Shown here in pieces: positions 9,456-24,433 of a stretch of DNA of 64,000 nt; the stretch's first letter is position 1, and the number at the start of each line of letters is the position of its first letter. The position numbers and the translations under genes are program-made. Source of the stretch: an uncultured Caldilineales bacterium (GTDB lineage Bacteria > Chloroflexota > Anaerolineae > JAAEKA01); contig CALESQ010000079.1 in the NCBI GenBank assembly GCA_937907455.1, forward strand, positions 1-64,000. Direction: 5' to 3'. A model generated the notes under the pieces. The model was not told the DNA's origin. It made no database searches and saw only the letters and a list, made by a program, of their open reading frames with translations.

Positions 9456-9570
9456 GAGACAAGTACACAAGGTGACAGGTAGACAGGTAGACAGGTAGAC
9501 AAGTACACAAGGTGAGAAGGGCGGAGGCTTTGTTTCCTTGTCTACTTATTCCGTGTCTGCTTGTCTGCTC
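9456..9570. repeat. Intergenic micro-repeat. GACAAGTACACAAGGTGA flanks (CAGGTAGA)x3, followed by an inverted partial copy (cttgtctacttattccgtgtctgcttgtctgc).
   Basis: Direct reading of 9456-9570, which lies between the convergent AsnC-type and IMPase genes. Confidence 0.8.
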
Positions 9571-10349
9571 GTTATCCTCTGCAACAGCGGCTCGATCAGC
9601 GCGGCGCGCGCGGCGAGGATCGGTTCGGGCGCGGCGCGGCCATCCAACAGCGGGGTGATCTCCACGGCTGCGCCGGAGAGGTAGCGCAGTTCGATGCCCA
9701 AAGCACTCAGCAGCGGCCAAACACCAGCCAAATCCCATAGCCTGACCGGACGCAGCAGCGCGCCCACCGCCGCGCCGCGGCCTACATAGACCAGATGCGC
9801 CGCCGCGCTGCCCAAACTACGCAGCCGGGGGTAGTCAATAGTGTAAAGCTGATGCCAGTTCGACGGCACAGCCAGAAACGCGGTGCGATCCTCTAACCCG
9901 AGGGCGGGCGGCAGCAGACGGCGGCCATTCAGAAACGCACCGCGGGGGTGGCCGGTGTACAACTCGCCCACGGCAGGCAGATAAAACGCACCAGCGACGG
10001 GAACGCCCTGCTGCAAAATCCCCACGGAGATACCCCACACCGGCAAACCACTCAAGTAAGCGCGGCTGCCGTCCAGCGGATCGAGCACCCAGGTGACCGC
10101 GGGATCGTCGCCGCCCAGGTTGCCCTCCTCGGCCAGAATGCGCTCGGCGGGGAAACGGCTGCGGATGCGCGCAGCCAGCAACGCCTCAATCTGCTCATCC
10201 ACCGCGCTCACCGGCGTGTGATCGGCTTTGTCGCGCACGGCAAGATCGGCGCGACGCGCAGCCAGTGCCATGCGCCCGGCCTGCCTGAGCGTCGGCGTGA
10301 TCCAACGCAACAGCCCGCGGACAGGGAGGGACAAAGCGTTTGTTGGCAT
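9546..10349 (-). CDS. Inositol monophosphatase family protein (SuhB/CysQ-like phosphatase).
   Basis: WVLDPLDGS (compare W.IDPIDGT) and WDLAGVWPLL (compare WD.AAG). Its start lies 2 nt downstream of the stop of the AAA-wHTH gene. Confidence 0.8.
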   Translation of the reverse strand: MPTNALSLPVRGLLRWITPTLRQAGRMALAARRADLAVRDKADHTPVSAVDEQIEALLAARIRSRFPAERILAEEGNLGGDDPAVTWVLDPLDGSRAYLSGLPVWGISVGILQQGVPVAGAFYLPAVGELYTGHPRGAFLNGRRLLPPALGLEDRTAFLAVPSNWHQLYTIDYPRLRSLGSAAAHLVYVGRGAAVGALLRPVRLWDLAGVWPLLSALGIELRYLSGAAVEITPLLDGRAAPEPILAARAALIEPLLQRITSRQADTE

Positions 10350-10351
10350 CG

Positions 10352-11713
10352 TCAGGAGACGGCGTTCTCTGGCGTGTCCACCAGCCGGTAGCCATGCCCG
10401 CGCACGGTGAGCAGGTAGCGCGGTTGCGTCGCATCCGGCTCGATGGCGCGGCGCAGGTGGCGCATCAGCGAGTCAATGCGGTTTTCGCTGCCGGCCTTGT
10501 CAGGATCAAGCGCCTCGGTGGGGTATAACGCGGCCAAAATCTCATCACGGCTGCACACCTGGCCCAGCCGACGATAGAGCAGGCGCAGCAAGTCGTATTC
10601 CAGCTTGCTGAGATCGGCCAGGCGGCGGCCCTCCACCCACACCACGGCCGCGGCCTCGTCCAGCCACAGCCCGCGGTGGCTCAGCGTGCCTTTCTCCAGC
10701 ACGAAATGATGAAACACCGGCGAGAAAAAGGTCGGCTGCTCGCTGTTCTCGTCGCGAATTAAGCCTTTCAGCGCCAGCAATTCACGCGGGGTGTACGGCG
10801 CGCCGATGCCCTGGGCGAGGCGGCTCAAGGCCAGGCGCTCATCCTCGGCCAGGCCCTGCCACAGCTTGCGGTATTCTTCTGCGACCGCGGGCTGAGCCAG
10901 CGCCCAATGCACCTGCGCGTCTGCATCCGCGGGTAACTCGGTGCGCGCCAGCACATCAGACAACGCCACCAGCGAACCGGGGTGTCCACCGCTGAGACGC
11001 AGCATGGCGGCGATTTCGGCCTCGCTCCAGGCGCGGCCACGGCGCGCGGCGATCTGTGCAACCACCTGCCGCGCGTCCACATCGTTGTAGGGCTTCAAGC
11101 CAAGCACCGAGCGCGACAGCAACTCGTAGAAGCCTTCACTGTCCGCGCGGTCACGCAGGCGGCCCGGATGATCGCGCAGCATCAGCACAAAGCACACCTG
11201 ATAGCGGTCGTTGTCGCGCAGGGCGCGCAGATTGGCCAGCGCGGCCGCGGGCAAGGTGCGGTAGCTCTCGTCGAACTCGTCGAGGATGAAGCACAGGCGC
11301 AAACCATGCTCACGGCACAGGGTGCGCGTGGCCAGCTCCAAATGACGTTGCGCCAGCAGCGCGTCGCGGCGGGTAATTGCCTCTGCACGCAGCGCGTTCA
11401 GCCATTCGCGCGCGTCCGCGGGGACGCGGTTGCCCACGCCCTCGATCAGCGCGGTGAGCAGCAGCTCGTACAGGCCCCAGTCGCTTTTCTCGGCCAGGCG
11501 GTTGCAGTCCGCCAGCAGCAGCGCGGTGTGGAGCGCAGCCTCGCTCAGGTAGTGCTGCTGCACCTCCGCGCGCTGGAGGAAGAGCAGCAGCCGCGACTTG
11601 CCCATGCTGGCCGAGCCGATGATGGCCGCGGACTCGCCGCCGCGCAGGAGGTCAAAGAGGGGCGCGGCGATTTCGGCACGAAAAGAAAGGGGGTAATCGG
11701 TTAAAACAAGCAT
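10352..11713 (-). CDS. N-terminal AAA/STAND-like P-loop ATPase fused to a C-terminal OmpR/PhoB-type winged-helix DNA-binding domain.
   Basis: Walker A GSASMGKSRLL and Walker B LCFILDEFDE. C-terminus LSKLEYDLLRLLYRRLGQVCSRDEILAALYP...RIDSLMRHLRRAIEP...YLLTVRGHGYRL (trans_reg_C). Confidence 0.75.
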   Translation of the reverse strand: MLVLTDYPLSFRAEIAAPLFDLLRGGESAAIIGSASMGKSRLLLFLQRAEVQQHYLSEAALHTALLLADCNRLAEKSDWGLYELLLTALIEGVGNRVPADAREWLNALRAEAITRRDALLAQRHLELATRTLCREHGLRLCFILDEFDESYRTLPAAALANLRALRDNDRYQVCFVLMLRDHPGRLRDRADSEGFYELLSRSVLGLKPYNDVDARQVVAQIAARRGRAWSEAEIAAMLRLSGGHPGSLVALSDVLARTELPADADAQVHWALAQPAVAEEYRKLWQGLAEDERLALSRLAQGIGAPYTPRELLALKGLIRDENSEQPTFFSPVFHHFVLEKGTLSHRGLWLDEAAAVVWVEGRRLADLSKLEYDLLRLLYRRLGQVCSRDEILAALYPTEALDPDKAGSENRIDSLMRHLRRAIEPDATQPRYLLTVRGHGYRLVDTPENAVS

Positions 11714-11715
11714 GT

Positions 11716-13938
11716 TCAGGCAGGGGTTAGGTTAGGATCAGAAGGAGTTGATGCTTTTAGCAATTTTTCCCACGACAACTCAATGCCTTCCGGATCGGCA
11801 AAATCAACATAAACCAGATAGGCAATGCGCAGGGGAAGCTCAACTTTTTCCTTGCGCAAGGGGACAAAGCGCCGTTCTCGATTAGCAGAATCAAGTGTCT
11901 GTAACATCAAATTCTCGAATTCCGTCCAACCGCTATCCATGTAATTTTGTGTGAGTATAGCCACAGTTTTTCGGCTTGTCTTAATTGCACGTTCCATTTC
12001 AATGACACTAGGCGCGCCTGGCTCAAAGTCAATGAAGTCAATACAAACCTTGAGATTGGCAGCTTTCAACCGCGGCAATAACTCAGCAACCACCCAGGCG
12101 CGATCCTTTGAACTGTAAGAAATAAAAACATCATACTCAAAGGACGAAGTTGTCGAGACAGAAGGTGATGATTGAGATGGAAATGATGGCTTCTTTGGAT
12201 TGCTCCAACTCTTGGGGGGCCAAGCATCATTTTGCCCGCTGTCCAGACTGCGACAAGTTGTGCCGCCTAACAGAGCGCATCGCTCATCCAGTGGAAGATC
12301 ACCCTCTTCTATTGGGTTATCTTCCTTCCGCATAGGCAAGGTTAAACGAAATGCTGTATTCAGCAGCAACGCCCAACGGTAAGGCCTGGTATCATCACCG
12401 GTTGTTGCTTTAGCGTGTTTACGGATGGTTTTAATGGCCTCAAAAGCCTTCACTGTATCGGTGCTAGCTCCTGAAGGCAAATCTGGCTCCCAAAATTTTA
12501 CTGGGTCTGACGAAAGCAGGTTAACGACAAGATGCAGAAACTCTGAAACCTTCGTTGCAAGTACCCGAAGAAGACGGGTGAGTATATCTATTTCTAACTC
12601 AACCCAATCGGCAAAAATCGGACCTGGGCCGGAGCGTTCGAAATCAATCAACCAAAGCTGCTTGGTTGTTTCATCTATAAAACAGTTGTCGGCCTGGAGA
12701 TCGCCGTGGATAACACACATTGGAATTGACTTGGGGCTATAGTCTTGGGAAACTATATAACCATTGGTTTCGCTGGCTTGTTCTAAAGCAATTCGTTGTT
12801 TTAGCCACGTAATTGGATCTGGGAGTTTTAGTTGCTCGCTAAACCAGGCTTGAAACTCAGGCGATACCTTTTCTAAAGCGCCTGCTGATGCACCGAAACG
12901 GTTGTGCCAGTTGTTGCCCCATAATGCTCTGTAAGCTTGATAAAGAGTTACTTTATTGTCGCCTTTTTCCTTTTTTGCATCATAGTAACTCTTCCACCCG
13001 GATCCGAAGTTGTTTAATACAGTGCAGATGTCTTCTGCCTGCCTTTCTTGATAATAGATGCGAAACAGAGCACCCACATCCCCAACATTCAAATAGCGAG
13101 TACCTTGGACATCCCATAAAACAGCTTCTGATTTCAGAGTAGCATAATACCTCAATGGAAATTTATCTTCCACGTACTTCTTATAACGAGTTGATTCATC
13201 ACGCGTCGGATCTGTTCGCACGATCTTGACAATATCGGAAATTGCGTTCCCATCTCGGTTAATCCGAATAACTACTGAACGCGGACGAACGCTACCTGCA
13301 CTGGGAAAACGATCATCGCTTTCTAAAGAATGGACTGCTAGCTGCTGGGCATCAGGATATAATTTCCAGAGGAGATCTTCTATTTCATCCACAGGAACAT
13401 CATCTTGATCAGGGAAAAGGCGTTTAATTAACTGTTCCGAGCCACCAATACTAAATGGCCATTTAATAAGCTCTTTTGTAAAGCGCCCCCAGTACTGGAG
13501 CTTTACTTCTTCAATAGTTTTCTCAAGCTCCTCAGGACCACTTTCCTTACCAACAAAGTCATAAGCGCGTAGGGGTACATCAGGTGGTGATTTGATAGCT
13601 GCACGCACGGTATCTTTGTCACCGTATCCGCTCACAATAATAGACACTGTAGGAGCGAGATGAGAAACAAGTTCCAAGCCTGTCCGATCAGTGGGATCAC
13701 CATCGCTTCTGAGCCGCATATCCACAAGAGCAATATGACATCGGTAATCATGCGCCTTTTTGATAGCGTCATCCCAAAGCGCCTGAAACAGATTGTCAGC
13801 GTCTTCGGGCGCTTCAGCCGCGTACGCTTCGTAACCCCAATCAGCAAGATTTTTGAGATGATCTTGTCGCCATTGCGGATCGTTCTCCACCACCAGAACA
13901 CGCGGCAGGTTCTCTTTACCCTTAGTATTGTCACTCAT
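11716..13938 (-). CDS. Three-domain protein: response-regulator receiver (REC), protein-kinase-like (APH/choline-kinase-type) phosphotransferase domain, and a C-terminal TIR domain.
   Basis: REC: RVLVVENDPQ...HIALVDMRL...VSIIVSGYG...AYDFVGK. Kinase-like: IHGDLQADNCFID (HGDLhxxN catalytic loop) and LWLIDFERSG (DFG/IDWE equivalent). TIR: YDVFISYSSKD (beta-A), DFEPG (BB-loop P-G) and SGWTEFENLM (the W-x-x-x-E glutamate used by NADase TIRs). Confidence 0.8.
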   Translation of the reverse strand: MSDNTKGKENLPRVLVVENDPQWRQDHLKNLADWGYEAYAAEAPEDADNLFQALWDDAIKKAHDYRCHIALVDMRLRSDGDPTDRTGLELVSHLAPTVSIIVSGYGDKDTVRAAIKSPPDVPLRAYDFVGKESGPEELEKTIEEVKLQYWGRFTKELIKWPFSIGGSEQLIKRLFPDQDDVPVDEIEDLLWKLYPDAQQLAVHSLESDDRFPSAGSVRPRSVVIRINRDGNAISDIVKIVRTDPTRDESTRYKKYVEDKFPLRYYATLKSEAVLWDVQGTRYLNVGDVGALFRIYYQERQAEDICTVLNNFGSGWKSYYDAKKEKGDNKVTLYQAYRALWGNNWHNRFGASAGALEKVSPEFQAWFSEQLKLPDPITWLKQRIALEQASETNGYIVSQDYSPKSIPMCVIHGDLQADNCFIDETTKQLWLIDFERSGPGPIFADWVELEIDILTRLLRVLATKVSEFLHLVVNLLSSDPVKFWEPDLPSGASTDTVKAFEAIKTIRKHAKATTGDDTRPYRWALLLNTAFRLTLPMRKEDNPIEEGDLPLDERCALLGGTTCRSLDSGQNDAWPPKSWSNPKKPSFPSQSSPSVSTTSSFEYDVFISYSSKDRAWVVAELLPRLKAANLKVCIDFIDFEPGAPSVIEMERAIKTSRKTVAILTQNYMDSGWTEFENLMLQTLDSANRERRFVPLRKEKVELPLRIAYLVYVDFADPEGIELSWEKLLKASTPSDPNLTPA

Positions 13939-16900
13939 GATTTCGCTCCTGAATTACTTGGCTTAGATGGCAGGCGGATAGCGAACAAAGCCCCTTGACC
14001 TTCAACGGCTGGGTAGAGATGGATGCGCCCGTTCATTGTTTCGATCAATGATTGGGCAATCAGTAAGCCAAAACCACTGTTTTGCTGGGTGTCGTCATTC
14101 TTTTTGGTCGAAAAGGGTCCGCGCAAAAGGTGTCGCCGCGCTTCAAAATCAAGACCAGGGCCGTTGTCCTGAATTTGCAGTTCCACTTGCTCAGAGGAAA
14201 GACGGTGGACGCGCAACGTGATTTGCTTAACAAGGGTTGTCGCCAGCGCTTCGGCTGCATTGCGCAATAGATGGCGTACAGCGCGCCAGGTTTGTTCTTT
14301 GTAGGCATAAACGACATGATCTTCATCGTCGGCAAAGGTTATCTTTACGTCGGAAGCGTTCGTGATGCGCCAGTGACGCACTCGGGGTTCGAGGAATTCT
14401 TTCAAAAAAAATCCGACCGGATCATTTCGTTCTATGTGCGCGTCACGCACAGTGTCTGCCAATTGCCCTGCGCGTCCGTCAATCTCTTTAGCCCAATCCA
14501 CTTTTTGATCTGCGGTAGCCCTGGTATCTGTTTGCAGCCAGCCCGCACGATTGCGAATATAGCCCACCTCGCTGTTGATGTCATGAGCAATATCAGCCGC
14601 CCAGGCCATCGCGCCGGCCACTGAAACGCGACTCTGTGCCAATGCAGCATGGCCTAAGCGGTCAAGCGCCAAAGCAACTTGTTTGGCTGCCATTTCAAAA
14701 AGTCTCTCGTCGTCTTCACCAAAAGCATTCGGTGTGTCACTCTTGATCACCAAGACCCCGATCAGCTTATCGTTGCTGCCCAATAAGCCAGCGCATAGCT
14801 CAGACTGTGTGTTTGAGTTGACTTCAACATATATGCCCTTGTACTTCTCGTCATGAACGTTTTTGACGTTTTCTATGATGATTTTCTTCTCGTTAAGGGA
14901 ACGTCGGGCTACCTCGCAGGTGATCCCTTCGCCGTCAAGGGGTAAACGGACACGGTGCTGATATTCAGGTATTGTAGGCTGATAAAATTCCCTTGCCACC
15001 TTGGGAAGCTCTAACACATCCTCGCGATCCTCGTAGAGCATAATATAAGGCGTTGCTGTAGGATCTTTGCGGCTAAACTCCTCTTTTAAGACGTTTAATA
15101 CGCCGCGCAAAACAGTGTCAAGGTCCAGGCTGGCTCCTGCGGCGGTGGCAACCCTCAAGGCAGTCTCAAATCGTTGCTGTCGCTGCTGTGCCAATTCCAG
15201 CGTTTGCGCATTGTGGATGGCGGTGGCAGCAGCGTCGGCAAAGGCGGTGAACAAGGCCCGCTCAGTAGCCAAAAACTCATGACGTTTGCGATAATTTAAG
15301 AATAATGCTCCAATTGCAGCAGATTTGGTACCGAAGCGCAAGGAAAGTGCCGCAGTTGAGAAAATGCCCTCCTCGCGCGTAAAGTCTCCATCTAAGACGG
15401 AGCCGTTCTCTATAACCGAAGCAAACAAAGGATTAGGGCGCTCCATCACGGTTTTCACCAGGTGATCACTGGTTCTGCTGCCACGATGTTTTTCGTTTTG
15501 TACATTCCATTGCGGCCCTGAAATCAGCTTGTCTTTGTCTTCTGCATCGGTATACCACATGGTGATGCAATCCAGTTCCGGCGCCACCTTGCGGGCATAC
15601 GCGACGATGGCGTCGAGGGTTGTGGCTAAGTCCATAGATGCAGACACGGTAGCAATCGTCTGCGCCATGGTTTGCAGATCACTGCGGGTGCGTACGCTAT
15701 CCAACGCCAACTCGCAGGCCCGGCCCAAGCGCTGTAAGCTCTCTTCATCCAGAGTGCTGAAGGATGCTTTCTTGTCTGATTGGCGGACGGCCAATGCGCC
15801 GATGGCTTTTTCACCGGTGCGCAGCAGAACAATTAAATCATTCTTGTTGCGGTGTAAAGGCTTGTTTTGCTCCAAAACCTGGCCAATCGCTCCAGCATGG
15901 ATTTCGCTAGACAGCGAGCGCAGCTCGCCTTTTGGGGTGAGATGATAATCGCGGCGCATTTGCTTGCGCTGTTCCCCTTCTCCTTCCCAGTGAGCTATAG
16001 CCAGAGTAGTTTTGACTCGGTGATCGAACAGGTCTGCAGTATTCGATAGAATGGAGCGTCTTAACTTTTTCTCATCCACATCGGAGGCCAACGCTTGAGC
16101 TTGAATGTTCGCGATCAGTTGCATGCTAAGCCGTTGCCGTTCCATGCCATGCTCAGCTTGGACGCGCCCATGTTGTTCCTGCCCGAATTCACGCGCATAG
16201 CTAATGACCGTAGCGCCAATTGTCGCCAGATGTTCGGAGCGGGCAATGTCCTCTTCGGTGAAAGATCGCGGTGTACGATAGTCAAAATAAATCACACCCA
16301 GCGGTTCTGCTGTCAAGGCTTTGCGCATGGGAACGGCTATCATTGCTTTGACACCTTCACGCTTGACAAATGAATGTTCAGCGAGGCGCTTGCCCCCAAA
16401 CTTTAGCGTAGAATGATCAACGTCAGCTACCACCAGATTACCAGATTGCAAGACCGAAAAGGTGACGCCTTGTTGGCGCGGTTTGTTTTTAGAGATGAAA
16501 TCATCACCGTGGTTCAAGCCACGATGGACAACGTTGTTCAAGTCATAAGCGCCTGTTTCAGCCAGATAGGGATAAATCACAATACTGTTCGCTGACATGA
16601 TGGAATCAGCGGATTGGTCACACAGGTCTTGCAAGCTCTCTTTTAAGGGTCGCTGGGCTGCCCGCTCGGTGATGCGCCGGTTGAGTGCGAGGATGTTTTC
16701 ATACTTTTCGCCAAGCAGGCGACTTCGGTTTCTTTCCTGTGCCTGCTGCCATTCAGTCATGGCCTGCGCCAGCAATTCTTCCACCTTGCTCAGATCGCCA
16801 TGACGAAGGGGCTCGCCGTCAAAAGCGTTGTCTACCCACAAAACCCCGATGACTTTGCCACCCTGTTTGACCGGCAGCAAGGCGCAGTCGTAGTCTGTTG

Positions 16901-18809
16901 CCTTGTCCAGTAAATCAGATGGGTGGGGCAATGAACTTTCCGGCAGCGCATTTTCCAATGCCGAAGAAGCCATGGTTCTGCGTGCTGGACTACGCAAAAT
17001 ATCAACCTGCTCTGAGCTAAGTCGCCACTCAACGACTGCCTGTTGCAGAGGGGTTGGATCAGACAAGGCCAGATGAGGAGCGGCAAAGTAGTCTTGCAGG
17101 CTTTTTTTGCCATCGCGATCCTTTTCCCAGGACCCCCGCGCCTCTTTGCGCGTCCAGTGGCCAATGGCCATGCGTCCCATCCAGAGGCTATCTGCCACCG
17201 GCGATTGCAAAAACAGCAAGGCGCGGTTGAAACTGTTGCCCTCGCGATGGGTAATCGTAGTCAACACGGCATGCCAAAAGCCTTCTTCTGACTCCTCGAT
17301 CAAACGCGGCAGCACGGCCCGGAGTTGCTTGGCTGCTTCATCCTGGCGCTTCTTCTCTTCTTCGCGCTCGTGCTGATAGGCCGCATAAATCGCACCGGCA
17401 ATTTGATCAGCAATTTTGCCGAGTAGCTGCTGATGGCTAGGCGTATAGGATATTTTTTCATCATAACTTTGAACAGCTAGCACACCAATGACTTTTCCAC
17501 TATCTAATCGCAGTGGCACGCCCAGCCAACAAGCAGCCGGCCTGCCAAAATGGTCAATGCCATTATCTTGACAGAATTTTATCGCATCATGAAAAAGCAG
17601 AGATTGGTTTTTGGATATGAGATAACCACTCACTGCACTACCTGGTTTATGCCAGTGGCGATCTTGTAACACGTTGTCTTCATAGTGTCTTCGATAATCA
17701 AGATAGCCTGTTTCCAAATCGGACAAAACAACCATAAAGTTAGATACATCCAGCTTGACACGTTTTCCCACCAGGCGGCGTATCTCGTCCAGCAGTTCAT
17801 CGAGATTGCTGGTAGCGGCTTTGGTAATGATCTGCCTGCCAATGGTACTCAACAACTCCGCTTCCCGCGCCTGCTCTTGCGTTTGCTCATGCAGCCGCGC
17901 CCGCTCTAACGCCGCTGCGGCCTGATTGCCGAACAAAGCTAATACCGCCCCGATTTGATTGCGCTGTTGTGCGCTAAAAGCAGAATCCAGTTCATCGTTG
18001 TCCAGAGTGAGTGTACCAACTTTGTGGTTTCCGCTCGACAGCGGGATTTTTACCCATTCTCCGACCGGTGGTTGCATCCCTTGGGCTGCATAAAATTCAT
18101 CAGTTCCACCCTTACCTGCCTCACGCGCCTTGAAGATCATCGGCTTGCCAGCTTCAATTGCTTGCTTGGAATACATTAACTCCTTCAAAGGTGCGCGCAA
18201 ACCTGCAAACCCTTTCAAGCGAGCGGTGCCTGCCTGACTAACACCTACCATTTCAGGATCACCCTGTGCTTCCTGGCCTTGTTCTACCAAGAGGCGCAAG
18301 CGCGCGCGCTTAAAATCAAAGTGTAGAGCGCCCTGAACAATGGCATCGGCTACAGCTTGCACGGTCGAGGCGCTCTGCATGGCGGTGGTGACCTCGGTCA
18401 AAATTTGCAGCCAGTTGCGTTCATTGCGAATACCACGGCTTTTTTCAATGGACTTAAGCACGTAGACGAGTTCGCGCGTGTCAAAAGGCTTGGTCAGATA
18501 GCGATACGCCCCCAAATCAAAGGCAGCAATCCCCGCCTCAACCTCGTTGTAACCAGTCAGGATGATGGCATCGCTTTCCGGGCTGAGATCGCGCAGTTGC
18601 CCCATCAAGACAACACCGTTAACGTCCGACCCTTCCAGGCGTTGATCCAAAACAAAAGCAGCAAAAGGCGAGGCAGCCTCCTTCACCGCCAAACGCGCCT
18701 GTGCTGCGCTGTTGACGGCAACCACATCAAATCCTTTTTCGAGTCGCCTCAGTTGCTCACCGAGCATGTGAGCAAGTACTTCGTCGTCGTCTACAATTAA
18801 AATACGCAT
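13935..18809 (-). CDS. Giant hybrid sensor histidine kinase: N-terminal REC, at least 6 tandem GAF domains, HisKA and HATPase_c (about 1,625 aa).
   Basis: REC: MRILIVDDDEV...AFVLDQRLEG. GAF cores, for example ACWLGVPLRLDSGKVIGVLAVQS, LGVIYFDY, IGALAVRQS and LIGVLVIKS. H-box ADIAHDINSEV. HATPase_c: QDNGPGLDF...GFGLLIAQSLIETMNGRI. The start was placed at the internal ATG at 18809 (MRILIV), giving a 16-nt gap to the upstream gene. Confidence 0.8.
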   Translation of the reverse strand: MRILIVDDDEVLAHMLGEQLRRLEKGFDVVAVNSAAQARLAVKEAASPFAAFVLDQRLEGSDVNGVVLMGQLRDLSPESDAIILTGYNEVEAGIAAFDLGAYRYLTKPFDTRELVYVLKSIEKSRGIRNERNWLQILTEVTTAMQSASTVQAVADAIVQGALHFDFKRARLRLLVEQGQEAQGDPEMVGVSQAGTARLKGFAGLRAPLKELMYSKQAIEAGKPMIFKAREAGKGGTDEFYAAQGMQPPVGEWVKIPLSSGNHKVGTLTLDNDELDSAFSAQQRNQIGAVLALFGNQAAAALERARLHEQTQEQAREAELLSTIGRQIITKAATSNLDELLDEIRRLVGKRVKLDVSNFMVVLSDLETGYLDYRRHYEDNVLQDRHWHKPGSAVSGYLISKNQSLLFHDAIKFCQDNGIDHFGRPAACWLGVPLRLDSGKVIGVLAVQSYDEKISYTPSHQQLLGKIADQIAGAIYAAYQHEREEEKKRQDEAAKQLRAVLPRLIEESEEGFWHAVLTTITHREGNSFNRALLFLQSPVADSLWMGRMAIGHWTRKEARGSWEKDRDGKKSLQDYFAAPHLALSDPTPLQQAVVEWRLSSEQVDILRSPARRTMASSALENALPESSLPHPSDLLDKATDYDCALLPVKQGGKVIGVLWVDNAFDGEPLRHGDLSKVEELLAQAMTEWQQAQERNRSRLLGEKYENILALNRRITERAAQRPLKESLQDLCDQSADSIMSANSIVIYPYLAETGAYDLNNVVHRGLNHGDDFISKNKPRQQGVTFSVLQSGNLVVADVDHSTLKFGGKRLAEHSFVKREGVKAMIAVPMRKALTAEPLGVIYFDYRTPRSFTEEDIARSEHLATIGATVISYAREFGQEQHGRVQAEHGMERQRLSMQLIANIQAQALASDVDEKKLRRSILSNTADLFDHRVKTTLAIAHWEGEGEQRKQMRRDYHLTPKGELRSLSSEIHAGAIGQVLEQNKPLHRNKNDLIVLLRTGEKAIGALAVRQSDKKASFSTLDEESLQRLGRACELALDSVRTRSDLQTMAQTIATVSASMDLATTLDAIVAYARKVAPELDCITMWYTDAEDKDKLISGPQWNVQNEKHRGSRTSDHLVKTVMERPNPLFASVIENGSVLDGDFTREEGIFSTAALSLRFGTKSAAIGALFLNYRKRHEFLATERALFTAFADAAATAIHNAQTLELAQQRQQRFETALRVATAAGASLDLDTVLRGVLNVLKEEFSRKDPTATPYIMLYEDREDVLELPKVAREFYQPTIPEYQHRVRLPLDGEGITCEVARRSLNEKKIIIENVKNVHDEKYKGIYVEVNSNTQSELCAGLLGSNDKLIGVLVIKSDTPNAFGEDDERLFEMAAKQVALALDRLGHAALAQSRVSVAGAMAWAADIAHDINSEVGYIRNRAGWLQTDTRATADQKVDWAKEIDGRAGQLADTVRDAHIERNDPVGFFLKEFLEPRVRHWRITNASDVKITFADDEDHVVYAYKEQTWRAVRHLLRNAAEALATTLVKQITLRVHRLSSEQVELQIQDNGPGLDFEARRHLLRGPFSTKKNDDTQQNSGFGLLIAQSLIETMNGRIHLYPAVEGQGALFAIRLPSKPSNSGAKS

Positions 18810-18825
18810 CGTTTTTCCCTTCCCG

Positions 18826-21039
18826 TCAGATACGATAGGGCAGCTCCACCGCCATGGTGGTGCCCCAAAGGGTATGGCTGGACTCGATAAATACACGACC
18901 GCCCTGAGATTCGATCAGGCTGCGGGCAATGAACAACCCCAGACCGCTTCCATCTTCTCTGGTGGTATAGTCCATCTCAAAAATTCGTTCCCACAAGCGC
19001 TGATGAATGCCCGGGCCGTCATCCTGCACATATAAGCGCAGGATGTTTTTTCCTTCATGTTTGGTTTGTAGCATTTGAATTTCAACCCGGCCGCCACGCT
19101 CCGGTCTCGTTAACGCGATTTGCTGGATGGCATTTTGTACTACATTCACCAACACCTGTTGCAGGTAGGTAATCATCGCCCGCGTGAAATAAAGTTTGGG
19201 AGCTGGGCGGAGAATTAATTCAACTTTGTTTTCTTTGGCCGTTTCGCTCAGCAGGCTCACCACTTCATGGGCAACTTCGTCCAGACGAATTAATTCTTCC
19301 ACCCCTGAGCGTGTTATTTTGCCGAAAGAGTGCATCGTATGGGCCATGCTTTGTGTTTGTTGCGTCAGCTTTTGCAGTTCTTCTTTTGTCCGTGCTGTTT
19401 CCCTGATAACTTCCTCAGGAGAAGTAAGGGCACATTGCTCTACCCGCTTGCAGCCCTCTTCGAGATCCCGCAAGATAAGATTGAGTGGGCTAATACGTCC
19501 GCTGATTTCATGAATCACGGTGCGGCTCAACTGCCCCAGCAAAGCAACCCGTTGTAAATCCGCCGTTTGTTTAATCAATTGCTGGCGTTCCAGCCAGGAA
19601 GCAATGCGCGCCGCGCTTCCTTCGGCGCTGGCGATCAGCCCATTGGGGATGAAAGCGAGCGGGTGACTGAAAAACAGGAACAATGCGTAGCGTTTGCGCA
19701 GATGAGCCGGCACCGGCACGCCGCAGCACGCGCTGAAATCAAGCAAAGGCAGCACGTGTCTTAAGCGTCCGGCGGTTTGCTGCTGAACATGGTTAGCAGT
19801 AAAAACAGTCTGCTCTTCAGCCACGTTGCGTATCGGACTGTAGATTAGCTCCGGCCACGCCGTGTTGCGCAAAGAAACAGGCCCTTTGTGTTCAAACACC
19901 TTGATCTGCGCCTGATCTGTATCCAGCTCAAAGAGCACTGCCTTGTCAGCTTGCGCAGCACTGATAGCACGCAGCAGCATAACAGCCAGTTCGCTTTGTT
20001 CAGCCTTGGGTACGGTAAATACAGATTGTTCTAATGTCATACGGGTAGGCGAACTGGAAGGTGCTAGTGATTGGTCGGGCTTTTCCAGCAACATTTCAGC
20101 TAAATGGTTAGGCAGTAAAGGCTTGATCAAGAGCGATACTCCCTCTTTGCGCAGGGGCGTTAGCTCCTTGTCACGGCGTTCTGCCCTTCCCCAATCGGTC
20201 ATCAACACGCAGCGCAGCTCAGGCCATTGGAATCTGATCTGCCGGGCTGCGGCAATGCCATCCATGCCGGGCAGGCCAATATCCATCAACACCAAATCCG
20301 CCGATTGTGCTTCAAGAAAGGCAAGAGCCTCCTCTGCCTTCTCAGCCACATAAACGACACGTTGACCGACATTACGTAGCCAGTTCGCCAGCGACAGACG
20401 TTGATCCTCCTCATCTTCTACCACTACGATAGATTTAGGAACGCTGCTCAAGAGCTGTTGAATAGCGGTATTGTTAAGTCGGCTGGGAGACAATCCCTGT
20501 ACTGCACTCTTTGTCACAGTTTCAGGGTAGTGCCCGGCGCTATTCCATCGGTATTTTTCCAGTTGGCGCATGCTCAAAGCAACCCGTCTGCGCTTGCGGT
20601 CAACCGCGTCTATCGTTACTTTGACCAGATCACCGGGCCAGAAAACATCACCTATTGCCTCTTGTTTCCAATCGGGAAGATGAGAGATATGAACCAACCC
20701 AGAAAAGTCCTTTTCGAGCTTAACAAATACCCCATACGGCATGATGCCATCAACAACGCCACTAACTAAAGCGCCTACTGGAAAGCCATCAGCAGTGACA
20801 TTCCACAAATAAGCTTCAGCCAGCCAAATTTCCTCACTGTGTTGGCCCACAGCTTCGATTGGCTGTACAACGATTTCCAGCGAGTCTCCAGGCTTGTAAC
20901 GAGGAATTCTGGGGAACTTTGCCAGGATTTCAGGATTTGTGTCCCGCACCAACCCCTGCCGCCCATCCGGCAGCGCGACAATCAACCCGGCAGGGGTTGC
21001 GCGCACAACACGGGCATGGAGGGGCTGCGAGTAAAGCAT
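18826..21039 (-). CDS. Hybrid sensor histidine kinase with two N-terminal S1 RNA-binding domains, then REC, HisKA and HATPase_c.
   Basis: S1 domain: GALVSGVVDGIMPYGVFVKLEKDFSGLVHISHL...GDLVKVTIDAVDRKRRRVALSMRQL. REC: KSIVVVEDEEDQRL...DLVLMDIGLPGMDG. H-box VIHEISGRISPL. HATPase_c: YVQDDGPGIH...GSGLGLFIARSLIESQGGRV. Confidence 0.75.
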   Translation of the reverse strand: MLYSQPLHARVVRATPAGLIVALPDGRQGLVRDTNPEILAKFPRIPRYKPGDSLEIVVQPIEAVGQHSEEIWLAEAYLWNVTADGFPVGALVSGVVDGIMPYGVFVKLEKDFSGLVHISHLPDWKQEAIGDVFWPGDLVKVTIDAVDRKRRRVALSMRQLEKYRWNSAGHYPETVTKSAVQGLSPSRLNNTAIQQLLSSVPKSIVVVEDEEDQRLSLANWLRNVGQRVVYVAEKAEEALAFLEAQSADLVLMDIGLPGMDGIAAARQIRFQWPELRCVLMTDWGRAERRDKELTPLRKEGVSLLIKPLLPNHLAEMLLEKPDQSLAPSSSPTRMTLEQSVFTVPKAEQSELAVMLLRAISAAQADKAVLFELDTDQAQIKVFEHKGPVSLRNTAWPELIYSPIRNVAEEQTVFTANHVQQQTAGRLRHVLPLLDFSACCGVPVPAHLRKRYALFLFFSHPLAFIPNGLIASAEGSAARIASWLERQQLIKQTADLQRVALLGQLSRTVIHEISGRISPLNLILRDLEEGCKRVEQCALTSPEEVIRETARTKEELQKLTQQTQSMAHTMHSFGKITRSGVEELIRLDEVAHEVVSLLSETAKENKVELILRPAPKLYFTRAMITYLQQVLVNVVQNAIQQIALTRPERGGRVEIQMLQTKHEGKNILRLYVQDDGPGIHQRLWERIFEMDYTTREDGSGLGLFIARSLIESQGGRVFIESSHTLWGTTMAVELPYRI

Positions 21040-21157
21040 GGTCGGCAGCTTTCGTGAACAGAAAACAGCATACAGACGAGGACGATAACGCGGGGAAAGT
21101 TCACTCGCTATTATAACACAGCCACACTGCCCTGCTGCTATCAGATTTCTGGCAAAA

Positions 21158-21262
21158 TCCTGACAAAGCTGTCAAAGATTTCTGACATGCGCCTTTTGTC
21201 AGAAATTGCAGCCAGTTGTCAGCCGCCAGACAGCCTGGTGTCAGGTAGGAATTCCTGACCTG
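21158..21262. promoter_or_regulatory. Array of TGTCAG/CTGACA inverted repeats (candidate operator sites) in the promoter region of the S1-HK / TIR operon.
   Basis: CTGACAaagcTGTCA (21160-21174); TTCTGACAtgcgccttTTGTCAGAA (21180-21204); TTGTCAGccgcCAGACA (21216-21235); GGTGTCAGGtaggaattCCTGACC (21238-21260). Also a direct repeat AGATTTCTG x2. Confidence 0.55.
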
Positions 21263-21342
21263 TGATAACATGATAACAGAACGGAACCAAACAACACCCT
21301 CCGTTTTCACCACTGAATTCCCGAACGAAAGGAGTTGTCACC

Positions 21343-21567
21343 ATGGAAATCGCACTCGTGTTGCTGTTCATCATCGGTCTGATGGGTGTCTACATTCTTT
21401 ACCTGACCGTGCGCCTGAGCCTGTCGAGCCGCACCACGATGGTAGTGATGGCCCCAACTCCTGCTGGCGAGCAAGGTAACGGCTGCGGCGTGGCCGTGTT
21501 CCTGATCCTGACCATCATTGCAGCCATCATCCTCACCCTGGTCTTTGGACCGATCTTTCTCGGATAA
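21343..21567 (+). CDS. Small two-TM membrane protein (hypothetical).
   Basis: RBS AAAGGAG; two hydrophobic helices (LVLLFIIGLMGVYILYL and VFLILTIIAAIILTLVFG). Confidence 0.5.
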   Translation: MEIALVLLFIIGLMGVYILYLTVRLSLSSRTTMVVMAPTPAGEQGNGCGVAVFLILTIIAAIILTLVFGPIFLG

Positions 21568-21620
21568 ACTACCCCCACTCTATAATCACTCCGCAACCCC
21601 ATTTGCAAAGGAGTATCCCC

Positions 21621-21983
21621 ATGAACACCCTCACCGCCAAACTCTACGAGAAGAAACTGTTGGAAGAAAAAGCTTGGTGCACTGACATGATCGAACACCT
21701 GGCTGACCATGCCACCATGGACCCCCAGAACAACTACGCCGTAACAATGGCTCGGCACAAGCTGGTCAAGATCGAACGGGCTTTACGCCGGGTTGCTGCC
21801 GGCACCTATGATCAGTGCGACCAATGCGGCGACAAGATCGAGGCGGAGCGCCTTGAAATCCTGCTTGACAGCGAACACCATAGCTGCGCCCGTTGCGCCA
21901 CTGCCATTCGTCCCACCAACAAGCGAATGCCGGTGCGCCAACCAGCCTACGGCTACGGCCAGATGGCCCTGGCGCAGGCATAG
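21621..21983 (+). CDS. DksA/TraR-family C4 zinc-finger protein.
   Basis: CDQCGDKIEAERL...HHSCARCA four-Cys finger after an N-terminal coiled coil. RBS AAAGGAGT upstream of the ATG at 21621. Confidence 0.65.
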   Translation: MNTLTAKLYEKKLLEEKAWCTDMIEHLADHATMDPQNNYAVTMARHKLVKIERALRRVAAGTYDQCDQCGDKIEAERLEILLDSEHHSCARCATAIRPTNKRMPVRQPAYGYGQMALAQA

Positions 21984-22035
21984 CGCTAAACCCTCACCCT
22001 ACACGCGTTTCTGTTGAGGCACAGGAGGCAAGCCC

Positions 22036-22359
22036 ATGAACGTTCCCAACCTGCGCAACTCTGACACCGCCGGACTAGCCGCCATTCGTCGCTGGCAGCC
22101 ATGCGCCATAATCGCTGCTGATATGGCTGCAACCACCGGCGACTCGGTCCAGCCAATCTATTTTAACATCAGTTATGGCCTTGCTGCCCAAGCCCATTAC
22201 CCCTGGGCAGCCCGGATGTGGGAACTGAAAACTCCTCCCAAGCGTCCGGCAATTGACAAAATCGTACTCTCTGCAGAGGCTCTCACCTGCCTGCAGGATG
22301 TGCTAGATCTGCTAGAGGCAACGCTCATCCCATCAACCGACTATGTACTTATACAATAA
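22036..22359 (+). CDS. Hypothetical protein.
   Basis: ORF with RBS ACAGGAGG; followed by a terminator. Confidence 0.4.
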   Translation: MNVPNLRNSDTAGLAAIRRWQPCAIIAADMAATTGDSVQPIYFNISYGLAAQAHYPWAARMWELKTPPKRPAIDKIVLSAEALTCLQDVLDLLEATLIPSTDYVLIQ

Positions 22360-22377
22360 GTATGACCAACCGCACTG

Positions 22378-22412
22378 AACGCTGTTCTGGCCAACCAGAG
22401 CAGCGTTTTTGA
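22378..22412 (+). terminator. Rho-independent terminator.
   Basis: aacgctgttctgg cc aa ccagagcagcgtt followed by TTTTT. Confidence 0.6.
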
Positions 22413-22536
22413 TTCTCATCTCCGAACTCTACACACACGCTCTGCGCGGCGTTCACCGCGTCCCTGTGATTTGACAAGTTGCCCTACTGTAAATAGAATT
22501 AGAACATATTTTCTAATTCCCGAGAAACAATCAACC

Positions 22537-22797
22537 ATGGGTCAACTCGTCTGGCATCGGCACGACATCGAGAATATCCTGCGCGGCGTGGAGCTGGCAG
22601 GCCTGCAAACCGCGGGTCAGATGAATGACGCAGAGCTGGCCGGCTATCGCCGCGGCTTCCTGGCCGCGTTGGCGGCCACGGCTACCAGCTTCGGCATTGA
22701 GGTGAGACCCTTGCCTCTCGCCGCCCCCGCAGAAAGCCAACTCCCCCCCCTTACCCCCGCGCATCACCGCTATCCAAACCGAACGGGAGAGCGCTAA
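22537..22797 (+). CDS. Hypothetical small protein (weak call).
   Basis: ORF from the internal ATG MGQLVWHR. No recognisable domain. Confidence 0.3.
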   Translation: MGQLVWHRHDIENILRGVELAGLQTAGQMNDAELAGYRRGFLAALAATATSFGIEVRPLPLAAPAESQLPPLTPAHHRYPNRTGER

Positions 22798-24189: not shown

Positions 24190-24433
24190 ACGCACCTCCA
24201 CTTGCCACCACCAAAAACCAAACCCGAAAGACGACAGCCACACAGTGCAAAATTTAGCAGCGTTGCACAGTCGCCGGCCCACTCCGAGCTTCCAACTCCA
24301 CTGTCTGGGCAATTTCTGCCGCAAGGGCAAAAACCCCCAAGTTAACAAGAAACAAAGCGTCACTATTGTCACACAAACAGATAACAAAAACCATGATTTA
24401 AATCATATTAGCCTTGCCAAAATCAGGGCGGCC

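What the first reader, a model, noticed from the sequence alone, without database searches (positions are those of the whole stretch)
11716..13938. REC / APH-like kinase / TIR three-domain protein with intact NADase-type TIR motifs
Seen directly in the translation. The receiver has a conserved acidic pocket and phospho-acceptor-position Asp (HIALVDMRL). The middle domain has the aminoglycoside/choline-kinase catalytic loop (IHGDLQADNCFID) and the IDFE metal-binding motif. The C-terminus has the TIR beta-A YDVFISYSSKD, BB-loop DFEPG and SGWTEFENLM. The Glu at W+4 corresponds to the catalytic glutamate of SARM1 (WVHKEI) and plant TIRs (WCLDEL), so the TIR is predicted to be enzymatically competent. 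To my knowledge, fusing a phosphorylatable receiver and a small-molecule/protein kinase fold to a TIR is an undescribed architecture. It suggests phosphorylation-gated TIR oligomerisation and/or kinase action on a TIR-derived nucleotide.
Basis: partly seen in the sequence, partly recalled or inferred. Interest (0 to 1): 0.88.

Follow-up and report, generated by a model that had tools for sequence, protein, structure and literature searches.

The report
Phosphorelay-linked receiver–kinase–TIR effector protein
A filamentous Caldilineales (Chloroflexota) bacterium encodes a real receiver–kinase–TIR protein that belongs to a conserved but unstudied operon of histidine kinases and an ATPase–DNA-binding regulator. 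In relatives the TIR is swapped for caspases, other proteases, SIR2 or nucleosidases, so it is most likely a phosphorylation-triggered cell-suicide or immune switch rather than a one-off oddity.

Summary
The ORF is real (minus strand, 11716-13938, 740 aa) and every quoted motif is present. Profiles, folds and family conservation confirm three domains.

- **Kinase:** APH fold, Pfam TCAD9, with all catalytic residues near-invariant.
- **TIR:** genuine (pLDDT 90, TM 0.81 to TLR1 TIR), with conserved BB-loop Gly, alpha-C Trp and Glu at W+4.

It is not unique. REC+TCAD9 is the N-terminal unit of a family of a few hundred 50%-identity clusters, and all named members are Chloroflexota. Every locus with enough sequence shows the operon multi-GAF histidine kinase -> REC-TCAD9 -> P-loop ATPase-wHTH, often preceded by an S1-REC-histidine kinase. 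About half the proteins have no C-terminal domain. The rest carry TIR, CHAT, caspase, trypsin, SIR2, PNP nucleosidase, metallophosphatase or EAD7, and the TIR module is shuffled between divergent kinase scaffolds.

My best reading is a phosphorelay-gated suicide/immune effector. It works like Detocs and the Aravind-type conflict systems but is a member of neither. The idea that the kinase acts on a TIR product is disfavoured. It is a new variant of a known kind with no experimental data.

The parts
11716..13938 (-). REC-TCAD9(APH-like kinase)-TIR protein, 740 aa; the subject of the finding
   Evidence: ORF. Pfam TIR_2, TCAD9 and APH. 79 homologues. AF2 model with pLDDT >90 over aa 11-560.
13489..13908 (-). 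Receiver (CheY-fold) domain, aa 11-150. Key residues: E18, N19 (13882-13884), D73 phospho-acceptor position (13720-13722), S103, K131.
12169..13473 (-). APH-fold kinase domain (Pfam TCAD9), aa 156-590. Key residues: K238, E248, H411-G-D413 (12700-12702), N418, D432, E434.
11749..12147 (-). TIR domain, aa 598-730. Key residues: BB-loop G641, W671 (11926-11928), E675 (11914-11916).
   Evidence: Pfam TIR_2 1.4e-22. AF2 pLDDT 90. Foldseek TLR1 TIR E 1e-9, TM 0.81. Family conservation.
13935..18896 (-). Hybrid histidine kinase: REC, multiple GAF domains, HATPase_c. Its stop overlaps the start of the TIR gene (ATGA). The gene caller's start gives 1624 aa rather than the 1653-aa ORF.
   Evidence: Pfam. 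Junction sequence. Conserved directly upstream in every homologous locus. Fused to REC-TCAD9 in P0165 and P0195.
18826..21039 (-). S1 RNA-binding domain, REC and histidine kinase (737 aa); first gene of the operon
   Evidence: Pfam S1 1.9e-15, Response_reg 5.4e-18, HATPase_c 7.1e-17. NCBIfam HK-core matches over aa 484-736. Present in the window/L001, L002, L005, L009, L010, L012 and L014.
10352..11713 (-). P-loop ATPase (AAA_16/nSTAND1-like, below Pfam cut-offs) with a C-terminal OmpR-type winged helix. It starts 2 nt after the TIR gene stop.
   Evidence: Pfam Trans_reg_C 1.2e-16, AAA_16 and nSTAND1 1.3e-5. PDB hits fall only on the wHTH. Junction. An AAA homologue lies next to REC-TCAD9 in all ten loci with downstream sequence: directly adjacent in eight, separated by a second kinase paralog in L012, on the opposite strand in L014, and without a wHTH hit in L015.
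9546..10349 (-). Inositol-monophosphatase-family gene abutting the ATPase-wHTH gene; possibly co-transcribed, role in the system unproven
   Evidence: Pfam Inositol_P 4.9e-32. Same position in L009. Replaced by other genes elsewhere.
21343..22797 (+). Divergently transcribed small genes: a 74-aa two-TM peptide, a 126-aa DksA/TraR-type zinc-finger protein, and 107-aa and 108-aa proteins. Small genes of similar size sit at this position in relatives.
   Evidence: ORFs. NCBIfam yteA/DksA_like. Small genes of similar size in L005, L009 and L010.
22794..24221 (-). Membrane SPFH/Band_7 protein flanking the module (syntenic in L009)
   Evidence: Pfam Band_7 1.5e-8. Same position in L001 and L009.

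Best explanation
The protein is the output component of a chromosomal phosphorelay module of filamentous Chloroflexota.

**Shown**
- The operon is S1-REC-histidine kinase -> REC-(GAF)n-histidine kinase -> REC-TCAD9 kinase-TIR -> P-loop ATPase-wHTH, with overlapping or abutting genes.
- The triad GAF-kinase / REC-TCAD9 / ATPase is kept down to 25% identity.
- Rare proteins fuse the GAF-kinase, and possibly the ATPase, to REC-TCAD9.
- The kinase catalytic residues and the receiver's Asp, Ser/Thr and Lys are near-invariant.
- The C-terminal position is a swappable slot holding TIR, CHAT, caspase, trypsin, SIR2, PNP nucleosidase, metallophosphatase, the adaptor EAD7, or nothing.

**Inferred**
- The histidine kinases sense a cytoplasmic cue through their GAF and S1 domains (a small ligand and/or RNA) and pass phosphate to D73.
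- Receiver phosphorylation changes the oligomeric state of the REC-kinase unit and brings TIR domains together. TIR enzymes need this to form their two-subunit active site.
- E675 then cleaves NAD+, either depleting it or making a cADPR-type signal, and this arrests or kills the cell. That would be an altruistic response suited to a multicellular filament.
- The APH-like kinase is the ancestral, ATP-dependent output or threshold step of the receiver. It phosphorylates an unknown small molecule or peptide, possibly linked to the neighbouring ATPase-wHTH regulator. It is not specific to TIR chemistry.
For: - **Operon and junctions:**
- **Conserved gene order in independent loci:**
- **Rosetta-stone fusions:** P0165 is REC-GAF-HATPase-REC-TCAD9, P0195 is GAF-HATPase-REC-TCAD9, and P0211 is TCAD9 plus an AAA-like tail.
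- **Residue conservation:** D73 59/60, S/T103 60/60, K131 58/60, K238 59/60, E248 59/60, H411 60/60, D413 58/60, N418 59/60, D432 58/60.
- **TIR active-site residues:** W671, E675 and G641 are conserved.
- **Effector census:** CHAT 11+12, caspase 9+8, TIR 9+5, trypsin 3, PNP 2+2, Metallophos 1+2, SIR2 1, EAD7 1+3.
- **Module shuffling:** the TIR is 60-71% identical to the TIRs of P0007-P0010, whose kinases are only 31-35% identical to the query's. The kinases closest to the query's (46-53%) carry CHAT or caspase-PNP.
- **Link to the conflict-system effector pool:** the TIR is 55-67% identical to free TIR-EAD7 and TIR-EAD1 proteins.
- **Fast-evolving cassette:** the three signalling genes are 32-35% identical between the window and syntenic L009. 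The flanking ATPase-wHTH is 69% and the Inositol_P gene 58.5% identical. A GC drop of 15-20 points covers the same genes.
- **Precedents:** Detocs shows experimentally that a histidine kinase -> receiver-effector system can be an abortive-infection defence with swappable effectors. AbTir needs W204 and E208 and a two-TIR active site.
Against: - The receiver has Asn at DD2, which in canonical receivers binds the Mg2+ needed for phosphotransfer. It has KE instead of the usual KP after the conserved Lys. The query scores below Pfam detection.
- The TIR is closest to TLR/MyD88-type TIRs, where the Glu does not guarantee activity. The orientation of the Glu in the pocket could not be examined.
- The locus lies among housekeeping genes (PGK, GAPDH, FtsH, CofD), not in a defence island. 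No relatives occur on plasmids or phages, and there is no PADLOC system hit beyond the TIR.
- About half of the family has no effector, so the core function is signalling and may be purely regulatory.
- There is no experimental evidence of any kind, and the stimulus and the kinase substrate are unknown.
Confidence: 0.55

Rival explanations
1. This is a purely regulatory signalling module. The phosphorelay and the TCAD9 kinase control gene expression through the ATPase-wHTH regulator. The TIR serves as a TLR/MyD88-like homotypic scaffold that recruits other TIR proteins (for example the free TIR-EAD proteins), not as an enzyme.
For: The TIR is closest in sequence and fold to scaffold-type animal TIRs (TLR1/2/6/10/15, MyD88). 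It shares their BB-loop Pro-Gly. Its closest bacterial relatives are TIR-EAD adaptor-type proteins. Half the family lacks any effector, and a wHTH regulator is almost always present. The locus is chromosomal among housekeeping genes.
Against: W671 and E675 are near-invariant, which a pure scaffold would not require. The alternative occupants of the same slot are overwhelmingly destructive enzymes: caspase, CHAT, trypsin, SIR2 and PNP. Free TIR-EAD genes are not adjacent to REC-TCAD9 genes in the two loci examined.
Confidence: 0.17
2. The N-terminal domain is a pseudo-receiver that is never phosphorylated. It acts as a ligand- or nucleotide-responsive switch, or as a constitutive dimerisation switch. 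The adjacent histidine kinases signal only through their own receivers or by protein contact.
For: DD2 is Asn in 48 of 59 members. By the definition in PMC12632262 this is a pseudo-receiver. Kaur et al. 2021 propose receivers in conflict systems that work independently of histidine kinases.
Against: D73, S/T103 and K131 are kept in 58-60 of 60 members, and 11 members still have Asp at DD2. The gene is translationally coupled to a histidine kinase in every locus and is fused to one in P0165 and P0195.
Confidence: 0.15
3. One reading: the kinase domain phosphorylates a nucleotide product of the TIR (for example ADPR or cADPR) to make or destroy a signal.
Against: The kinase is equally conserved when the C-terminal domain is a protease or is absent. 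The TIR is a recently shuffled add-on. The structural neighbours also include peptide kinases (LxmK, TvaE).
Confidence: 0.05
4. This is an antibiotic or xenobiotic phosphotransferase (an APH-type resistance or detoxification enzyme) under two-component control, with the TIR incidental.
For: The top structural neighbours are aminoglycoside, corramycin and amicoumacin phosphotransferases.
Against: Identity to APHs is only 9-15%. The family is tied to cell-death effectors and a STAND-like regulator. No resistance-gene context is present.
Confidence: 0.03

Closest known systems
Detocs (DtcA/DtcB/DtcC defensive two-component system; Rousset et al., preprint 10.1101/2023.01.24.525353)
   Same: In both, a histidine kinase is encoded next to a protein with an N-terminal receiver and a toxic C-terminal effector. 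The effector slot is modular, and PNP nucleosidase occurs in both families. Extra receiver domains are present and could buffer stray phosphate.
   Different: No Detocs profile matches any gene here (PADLOC). An intact APH-like kinase lies between the receiver and the effector. There are two large cytoplasmic kinases with GAF and S1 sensors instead of a TPR kinase. An ATPase-wHTH partner is nearly always present. The receiver lacks DD2. The locus is a conserved chromosomal site in Chloroflexota, and no defence phenotype is known.
NTP-dependent 'ternary' conflict systems of multicellular bacteria (vWA-MoxR-VMAP, EADs, TCADs; Kaur, Burroughs, Iyer & Aravind, eLife 2020 and 2021)
   Same: The kinase is Pfam TCAD9, the family named after these systems. 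The effector repertoire matches: caspase, CHAT, trypsin, TIR, PNP and EAD7. The TIR is 55-67% identical to TIR-EAD7 and TIR-EAD1 proteins. The hosts are filamentous bacteria.
   Different: No vWA, MoxR or VMAP gene is in the operon. The 2020 paper reports the APH-like kinase only as a rare vWA-fused effector and states that no histidine kinases were found among those effectors. Here the kinase is the conserved core and histidine kinases are obligatory partners.
Enzymatic TIR domains (SARM1, AbTir, Thoeris ThsB, plant TIRs)
   Same: It has the TIR fold, the BB-loop Gly, and the alpha-C Trp with Glu four residues later, as in AbTir W204/E208.
   Different: Matches to AbTir, PdTIR, TcpB and SARM1 are much weaker than matches to TLR/MyD88 TIRs. 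No ThsA-like or other signal-receptor partner is nearby. Activity is untested.
Animal TLR/MyD88 TIR domains
   Same: These are the best sequence and fold matches (profile E 1e-21; TM 0.8). They share the 'DF.PG' BB loop and the 'W..[YF]E' motif.
   Different: This is a bacterial cytoplasmic protein in which the TIR is the C-terminal output of a receiver-kinase. Animal TIRs act mainly as scaffolds, although a 2026 preprint reports that TLR4 makes cADPR.
APH / choline-kinase / peptide-kinase branch of the protein-kinase-like superfamily (Rv3168, LxmK, TvaE, APH(3'), MTR kinase)
   Different: Identity is 8-15%. The substrate is unknown. It has a family-specific long helical C-lobe extension (aa 440-570) and an obligatory N-terminal receiver.

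Membership tests
TIR domain (Pfam TIR_2 / TIR) | Profile match above the curated threshold | tested here: met
   TIR_2 scores 80.9 bits against a cut-off of 28. TIR scores 53.9 against 21.3.
TIR domain (Pfam TIR_2 / TIR) | Flavodoxin-like TIR fold superposing on solved TIRs | tested here: met
   The AF2 model has pLDDT 90.1. All top 50 Foldseek hits are TIR or SEFIR domains, the best being TLR1 at E 1.2e-9, TM 0.81, rmsd 2.6 A.
NADase-type (enzymatic) TIR | Glu at the catalytic position of helix alpha-C, with an aromatic residue four positions before it | tested here: met
   W671 and E675 are present in at least 90% of the 44-member TIR alignment and in all intact REC-TCAD9-TIR relatives. E675 aligns with the TLR1/6/15 'W..YE' Glu. 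The spacing equals AbTir W204/E208. A direct hhalign to a SARM1 sequence recalled from memory stopped before this helix.
NADase-type (enzymatic) TIR | Glu pointing into a pocket formed with the BB loop of a second TIR; NAD+ turnover | not testable with these tools
   Model coordinates cannot be inspected and no oligomer model or assay is available. The literature shows that the Glu alone is insufficient: TLR2, IL-1R9 and IL-1R10 were inactive.
Response-regulator receiver (PF00072) | (beta-alpha)5 CheY fold | tested here: met
Response-regulator receiver (PF00072) | Profile match of the query itself | tested here: not met
   The query has no Response_reg hit at E<0.01. PDB phmmer gives only E 0.02-0.03. 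Homologues do hit: 30/60 and 30/43 members, best 2.4e-20. The family profile aligns to a canonical REC at 93.9% probability.
Response-regulator receiver (PF00072) | Active-site quintet DD, D, T/S, K (PMC12632262) | tested here: not met
   D73, S103, K131 and DD1 (E18) are present. DD2 is Asn19, and it is Asn in 48 of 59 members. By the cited definition this is a pseudo-receiver. Whether it can still be phosphorylated is unknown.
TCAD9 (PF19974) / protein-kinase-like superfamily | Profile match above threshold and a kinase fold | tested here: met
TCAD9 (PF19974) / protein-kinase-like superfamily | Intact catalytic residues (beta3 Lys, alpha-C Glu, HxD...N loop, metal-binding Asp) | tested here: met
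   K238, E248, H411, D413, N418 and D432 are each present in 58-60 of 60 members.
Detocs | Sequence membership in the DtcA/DtcB/DtcC families | tested here: not met
   PADLOC gives no hit for either neighbouring protein tested. For the query it gives only TIR-type hits.
Detocs | Operon of a histidine kinase plus a receiver-effector protein | tested here: met
   This is an analogy of design only.
Detocs | Phage defence dependent on the His, Asp and effector active sites | not testable with these tools
   This needs experiments.
vWA-MoxR-VMAP ternary conflict system | vWA, MoxR ATPase and VMAP/iSTAND genes in the same operon | tested here: not met
   Pfam scans of the operon and its flanks show none of these, and none appear in the homologous loci.
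Thoeris | TIR (ThsB) gene paired with a ThsA-type effector (SIR2/SLOG/Macro or TM) | tested here: not met
   Only weak ThsB-profile hits to the TIR (E 3e-4 or worse). No ThsA-like neighbour is present.

The most novel reading that the evidence does not exclude
The REC-TCAD9 unit defines a so-far undescribed class of bacterial death/immune switch. In it, a histidine-kinase phosphorelay controls an APH-type kinase whose phosphorylated product (a small molecule or a peptide) is the actual second messenger or licensing mark. That product would be read by the STAND-like ATPase-wHTH regulator and would trigger whichever suicide effector is fused (TIR, caspase, SIR2 or PNP). This would be a three-layer design (His-Asp relay -> small-molecule or peptide kinase -> NADase or protease) with RNA-sensing (S1) and ligand-sensing (GAF) inputs, evolving as a hypervariable low-GC cassette at a fixed chromosomal site in multicellular Chloroflexota.
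Probability: 0.2. Interest if true: 0.8.

Novelty: new variant of a known kind. Interest (0 to 1): 0.6.

Why it matters
- If the reading is right, two-component signalling has been recruited more than once to control cell-killing effectors. Detocs is so far the only tested case.
- It would add an ATP-dependent small-molecule or peptide kinase as an intermediate layer, which no characterised defence or programmed-death system has.
- It would give a function to Pfam TCAD9 and to a module conserved across filamentous Chloroflexota, a phylum with almost no experimentally studied immunity.
- It offers a bacterial TIR that is unusually close to animal TLR/MyD88 TIRs. That is relevant to the current question of whether TLR-type TIRs are enzymes.
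- If instead the TIR is a scaffold and the receiver a pseudo-receiver, the module is an unusual regulatory circuit of narrower interest.

Tried and rejected
- **First full-length AF2 model:** the TIR came out poorly (pLDDT 36-57) because most alignment rows carry other C-terminal domains. I redid it with a TIR-only alignment.
- **hhalign of the TIR profile against a SARM1 TIR sequence typed from memory:** it aligned only beta-A to beta-C and stopped before the catalytic helix, so it says nothing about the Glu.
- **Genome-contig scan:** it returned only one relative (L012) and not the source genome. The organism was identified instead from an exact-match FtsH named Caldilineales bacterium.
- **Literature:** 'TCAD9' appears only in figure legends or lists. 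It is absent from the main text of Kaur 2020 and from its one held supplement. No paper was found on receiver-TIR fusions.
- **Promoter/terminator scan of 9-24.5 kb:** counts were not above shuffles, so it was uninformative.
- **Mobile-element idea:** I found no tRNA genes in the window and no REC-TCAD9 on plasmids or phages, where only TIR-only hits appeared. This is not a mobile island.
- **Recruitment in trans by neighbouring TIR-EAD genes:** the two TIR-EAD loci examined have no REC-TCAD9 nearby. The idea is neither supported nor excluded.
- **Pfam census of all 150 representatives:** I ran it on the 43 long new members instead.
- **PADLOC:** it found only generic TIR-containing profiles (PDC-S66, bSEFIR, ThsB and others) over aa 591-728, and no system-level match.
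Full report
**1. What is there**

The finding's coordinates delimit one ORF on the minus strand, 11716-13938, encoding 740 aa. The plus-strand frame is full of stops.

Pfam gives TIR_2 (aa 604-718, 1.4e-22), TIR, TCAD9 (PF19974, 58.4 bits against a cut-off of 40) and APH. No receiver hit reaches E<0.01 in the query itself.

An exact-match look-up places the sequence on a 116,575-bp contig. Its FtsH is named 'Caldilineales bacterium'. The rest of the window carries housekeeping genes such as PGK, GAPDH, FtsH, CofD and acetyl-CoA carboxyltransferase. This is ordinary chromosome. I found no tRNA genes and no REC-TCAD9 relatives on plasmids or phages, where only TIR-only hits appeared on plasmids.

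**2. The three domains**

*Receiver.*
- The AlphaFold model (pLDDT >90 over aa 11-560) shows five alternating strands and helices in aa 13-149.
- The family profile aligns to the canonical receiver of the neighbouring kinase at 93.9% probability. D73 lies under the phospho-Asp, S103 under Thr and K131 under Lys. The pocket E18-N19-D20 lies under D-D-D.
- Across 60 relatives, D73 is present in 59, S/T103 in 60 and K131 in 58. The metal-binding DD2 position is Asn in 48 and Asp in only 11.
- By the definition in PMC12632262, a receiver lacking any of the five residues is a pseudo-receiver.

*Kinase.*
- Foldseek puts aa ~160-560 with APH(3')-Ia (E 5e-7).
- K238, E248, H411, D413, N418 and D432 are each kept in 58-60 of 60 members. 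This is an active enzyme family, not a pseudokinase.

*TIR.*
- A TIR-only model reaches pLDDT 90. It superposes best on TLR1, Hydra TRR-2, TLR6, TLR10 and MyD88 TIRs (E 1e-9 to 1e-7, TM about 0.8). PdTIR, AbTir, TcpB and SARM1 follow at 1e-6 to 1e-4.
- Sequence profiles agree: TLR-type hits at 1e-21, AbTir at 1e-9.
- G641 (BB loop), W671 and E675 are near-invariant.
- E675 aligns with the Glu of the TLR 'W..YE' motif. Its spacing from the Trp matches AbTir W204/E208, where both residues matter for catalysis and cyclisation.
- A 2026 preprint reports that TLR4 uses this Glu to make cADPR. TLR2, IL-1R9 and IL-1R10 carry it but were inactive.
- The motif therefore permits an enzymatic TIR but does not prove one.

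**3. It is one member of a conserved system**

A word-indexed search found 79 relatives. An exhaustive HMMER search with aa 1-590 against 1.84 billion representatives found 935 hits at E<=1e-3, 436 at E<=1e-10 and 197 at E<=1e-30. Most cover query residues 12-580 starting from their own N-terminus. REC+TCAD9 is therefore one evolutionary unit. All members that carry a taxon name are Chloroflexota: Anaerolinea, Anaerolineales, Ardenticatenaceae, Caldilineaceae, Kouleothrix and Chloroflexales.

Gene order was read in the window and eleven further loci carrying distinct homologues or further contigs of them.
- A ~1600-aa REC-(GAF)n-histidine kinase lies directly upstream in every locus.
- An AAA_16/nSTAND1-like P-loop ATPase lies downstream wherever sequence continues. 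It usually carries a C-terminal OmpR-type wHTH, which is not detected in L015. In L012 a second kinase paralog intervenes, and in L014 the ATPase gene is on the opposite strand.
- An S1-REC-histidine kinase precedes these in many loci.

In the window the genes overlap (ATGA) or are 2 nt apart. Three rare fusions give independent evidence that these proteins work together:
- P0165: REC-GAF-HATPase-REC-TCAD9.
- P0195: GAF-HATPase-REC-TCAD9.
- P0211: TCAD9 with an AAA-like tail.

**4. The C-terminal slot is swappable**

About half of the representatives are 510-620 aa and have no C-terminal domain. Pfam censuses of 60 and 43 members give the following counts.

| C-terminal domain | Members (+) |
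|---|---|
| CHAT | 11 + 12 |
| Caspase | 9 + 8 |
| TIR_2 | 9 + 5 |
| Peptidase_C25 | 5 + 1 |
| Trypsin | 3 |
| PNP_UDP_1 | 2 + 2 |
| Metallophos | 1 + 2 |
| SIR2_2 | 1 |
| EAD7 | 1 + 3 |
| DUF4062 | 1 |

The query is a mosaic. Its kinase is 46-53% identical to kinases that carry CHAT or caspase-PNP, but only 31-35% identical to those of the other TIR-bearing proteins P0007-P0010. Yet its TIR is 60-71% identical to theirs. Its TIR is also 55-67% identical to small free TIR-EAD7 and TIR-EAD1 proteins. Those belong to the effector pool of the conflict systems described by Kaur et al..

This pattern of destructive, interchangeable outputs is the signature of immune or programmed-death systems. It also argues against a kinase function tied to TIR chemistry.

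**5. A fast-evolving, low-GC cassette**

| Gene in the window | GC |
|---|---|
| REC-TCAD9-TIR | 45.8% |
| GAF histidine kinase | 52.0% |
| S1-REC histidine kinase | 52.2% |
| ATPase-wHTH (abutting) | 66.5% |
| Window background | 58-64% |

The same step occurs in L009 and L010, and the RR gene is also low in L002 and L005. It is absent in the effector-less distant loci.

Between the window and syntenic L009, the ATPase-wHTH is 69% identical and the Inositol_P gene 58.5%. The three signalling genes are only 32-35% identical. Across other loci the ATPase-wHTH is 61-73% identical where REC-TCAD9 is 33-54%.

Several metagenomic contigs end within 37-66 nt after the TIR gene or just inside the next gene. 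This fits strain-level alternative cassettes joined at that boundary. I cannot distinguish cassette exchange from accelerated divergence.

**6. Mechanism**

*Shown:*
- the operon and its conservation;
- the fusions;
- intact kinase and TIR catalytic residues;
- the receiver's Asp, Ser and Lys;
- effector swapping.

*Inferred:*
- the kinases (GAF, and an S1 RNA-binding domain) sense an intracellular cue and phosphorylate D73;
- activation of the receiver alters oligomerisation and brings TIRs together;
- E675 then cleaves NAD+, either depleting it or making a cADPR-type product, and this stops the cell;
- the TCAD9 kinase is the ancestral ATP-dependent output or threshold step, with an unknown small-molecule or peptide substrate, perhaps connected to the ATPase-wHTH regulator.

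I give this 0.55. The main weaknesses are the following:
- Asn at DD2;
- the TLR-like character of the TIR;
- the housekeeping chromosomal context;
- the many effector-less relatives;
- the total lack of experiments.

The rivals are listed below with my confidence in each:
- regulatory module with a scaffold TIR, 0.17;
- unphosphorylated pseudo-receiver, 0.15;
- kinase acting on TIR products, 0.05;
- xenobiotic kinase, 0.03.

**7. Comparison with what is known**

In design the system works like Detocs: a histidine kinase next to a receiver-effector, with swappable effectors including PNP. No Detocs profile matches, and the kinase layer, the sensors and the ATPase-wHTH partner are different.

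It shares TCAD9, EAD7 and the effector repertoire with the vWA-MoxR-VMAP conflict systems. It lacks vWA, MoxR and VMAP. The 2020 paper that mentions the APH-like kinase states that no histidine kinases were found among those effectors.

It is not Thoeris, because only weak ThsB-profile hits to the TIR and no ThsA-like partner were found.

I found no description of a receiver-TCAD9-effector protein or of this operon in the searchable literature. That library is incomplete.

**8. Verdict**

The object is a member of an uncharacterised, moderately sized Chloroflexota family, and I class it as a new variant of known two-component and conflict-system designs.

Noticed in passing
window 11716-23000 versus 9546-11713: There is a sharp GC step inside one operon. 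The TIR gene is 45.8% GC and the two histidine kinases about 52%, while the abutting ATPase-wHTH and Inositol_P genes are about 66.5%. The same step occurs in L009 and L010, and the REC-TCAD9-TIR gene is also lower in GC than its kinases in L002 and L005. The low-GC genes are also the fast-diverging ones: 32-35% identity against 58-69% for the flanks.
   Followed up: partly
window 18826-21039 (-): This histidine kinase has an N-terminal S1 RNA-binding domain (Pfam S1 1.9e-15) ahead of its receiver and kinase core. That suggests RNA as a sensory input. The architecture is conserved in L002, L005, L009, L010, L012 and L014.
   Followed up: partly
L002-L005 and L007 (contig ends); L006 6871-7008: Independent metagenomic contigs stop 37-66 nt after the TIR gene's stop, or 46 codons into the ATPase-wHTH gene. 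This is the same boundary as the GC step. It may reflect assembly-graph branching caused by alternative cassettes.
   Followed up: no
window 21343-22797 (+): Small genes run divergently from the operon: a 74-aa two-TM peptide, a 126-aa DksA/TraR-type C4 zinc-finger protein, and two proteins of about 107 aa with no family hits. Small genes of similar size sit at this position in L005, L009 and L010.
   Followed up: partly
L011 (whole locus) and P0001: The closest homologue's 'truncated TIR' is an assembly artefact. The whole operon in L011 is broken by frameshifts, and tblastn finds the rest of the TIR (aa 640-731, 63% identity) in another frame.
   Followed up: yes
L012 12300-13379 and 17460-18440: An Anaerolineales MAG carries a second, receiver-less TCAD9 kinase paralog and a second ATPase paralog next to the canonical module.
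   Followed up: no
window 13935-18896 (-): The start of the GAF histidine kinase is ambiguous. The longest ORF (GTG at 18896, 1653 aa) overlaps the upstream kinase gene by 71 nt. The public gene call starts later and gives 1624 aa.
   Followed up: no
window 9546-10349 (-); L014 13056-13973; L009 19457-19933: A phosphatase or NUDIX gene often follows the module: inositol-monophosphatase family here and in L009, NUDIX in L014 and near L009 and L011. These could act on phosphorylated or nucleotide products, or they could be unrelated housekeeping genes.
   Followed up: no
window 35180-36856 (+), 27700-30360 (+), 5332-7122 (+): Three other genes have weak or partial matches. One is a maltokinase-like protein (Mak_N_cap + APH). 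One is an 886-aa protein with a HerA/DUF87 P-loop segment. One is a 596-aa PRK/uridine-kinase-domain protein with a weak nSTAND3 hit. I saw no link to the finding.
   Followed up: no
L016 10001-10711; L018 10001-11430: The free TIR-EAD7 and TIR-EAD1 genes most similar to this TIR sit in unrelated neighbourhoods. One is next to a SEC-C-motif protein with a bpMoxR ATPase 4 kb away. The other is followed by a second TIR gene.
   Followed up: partly
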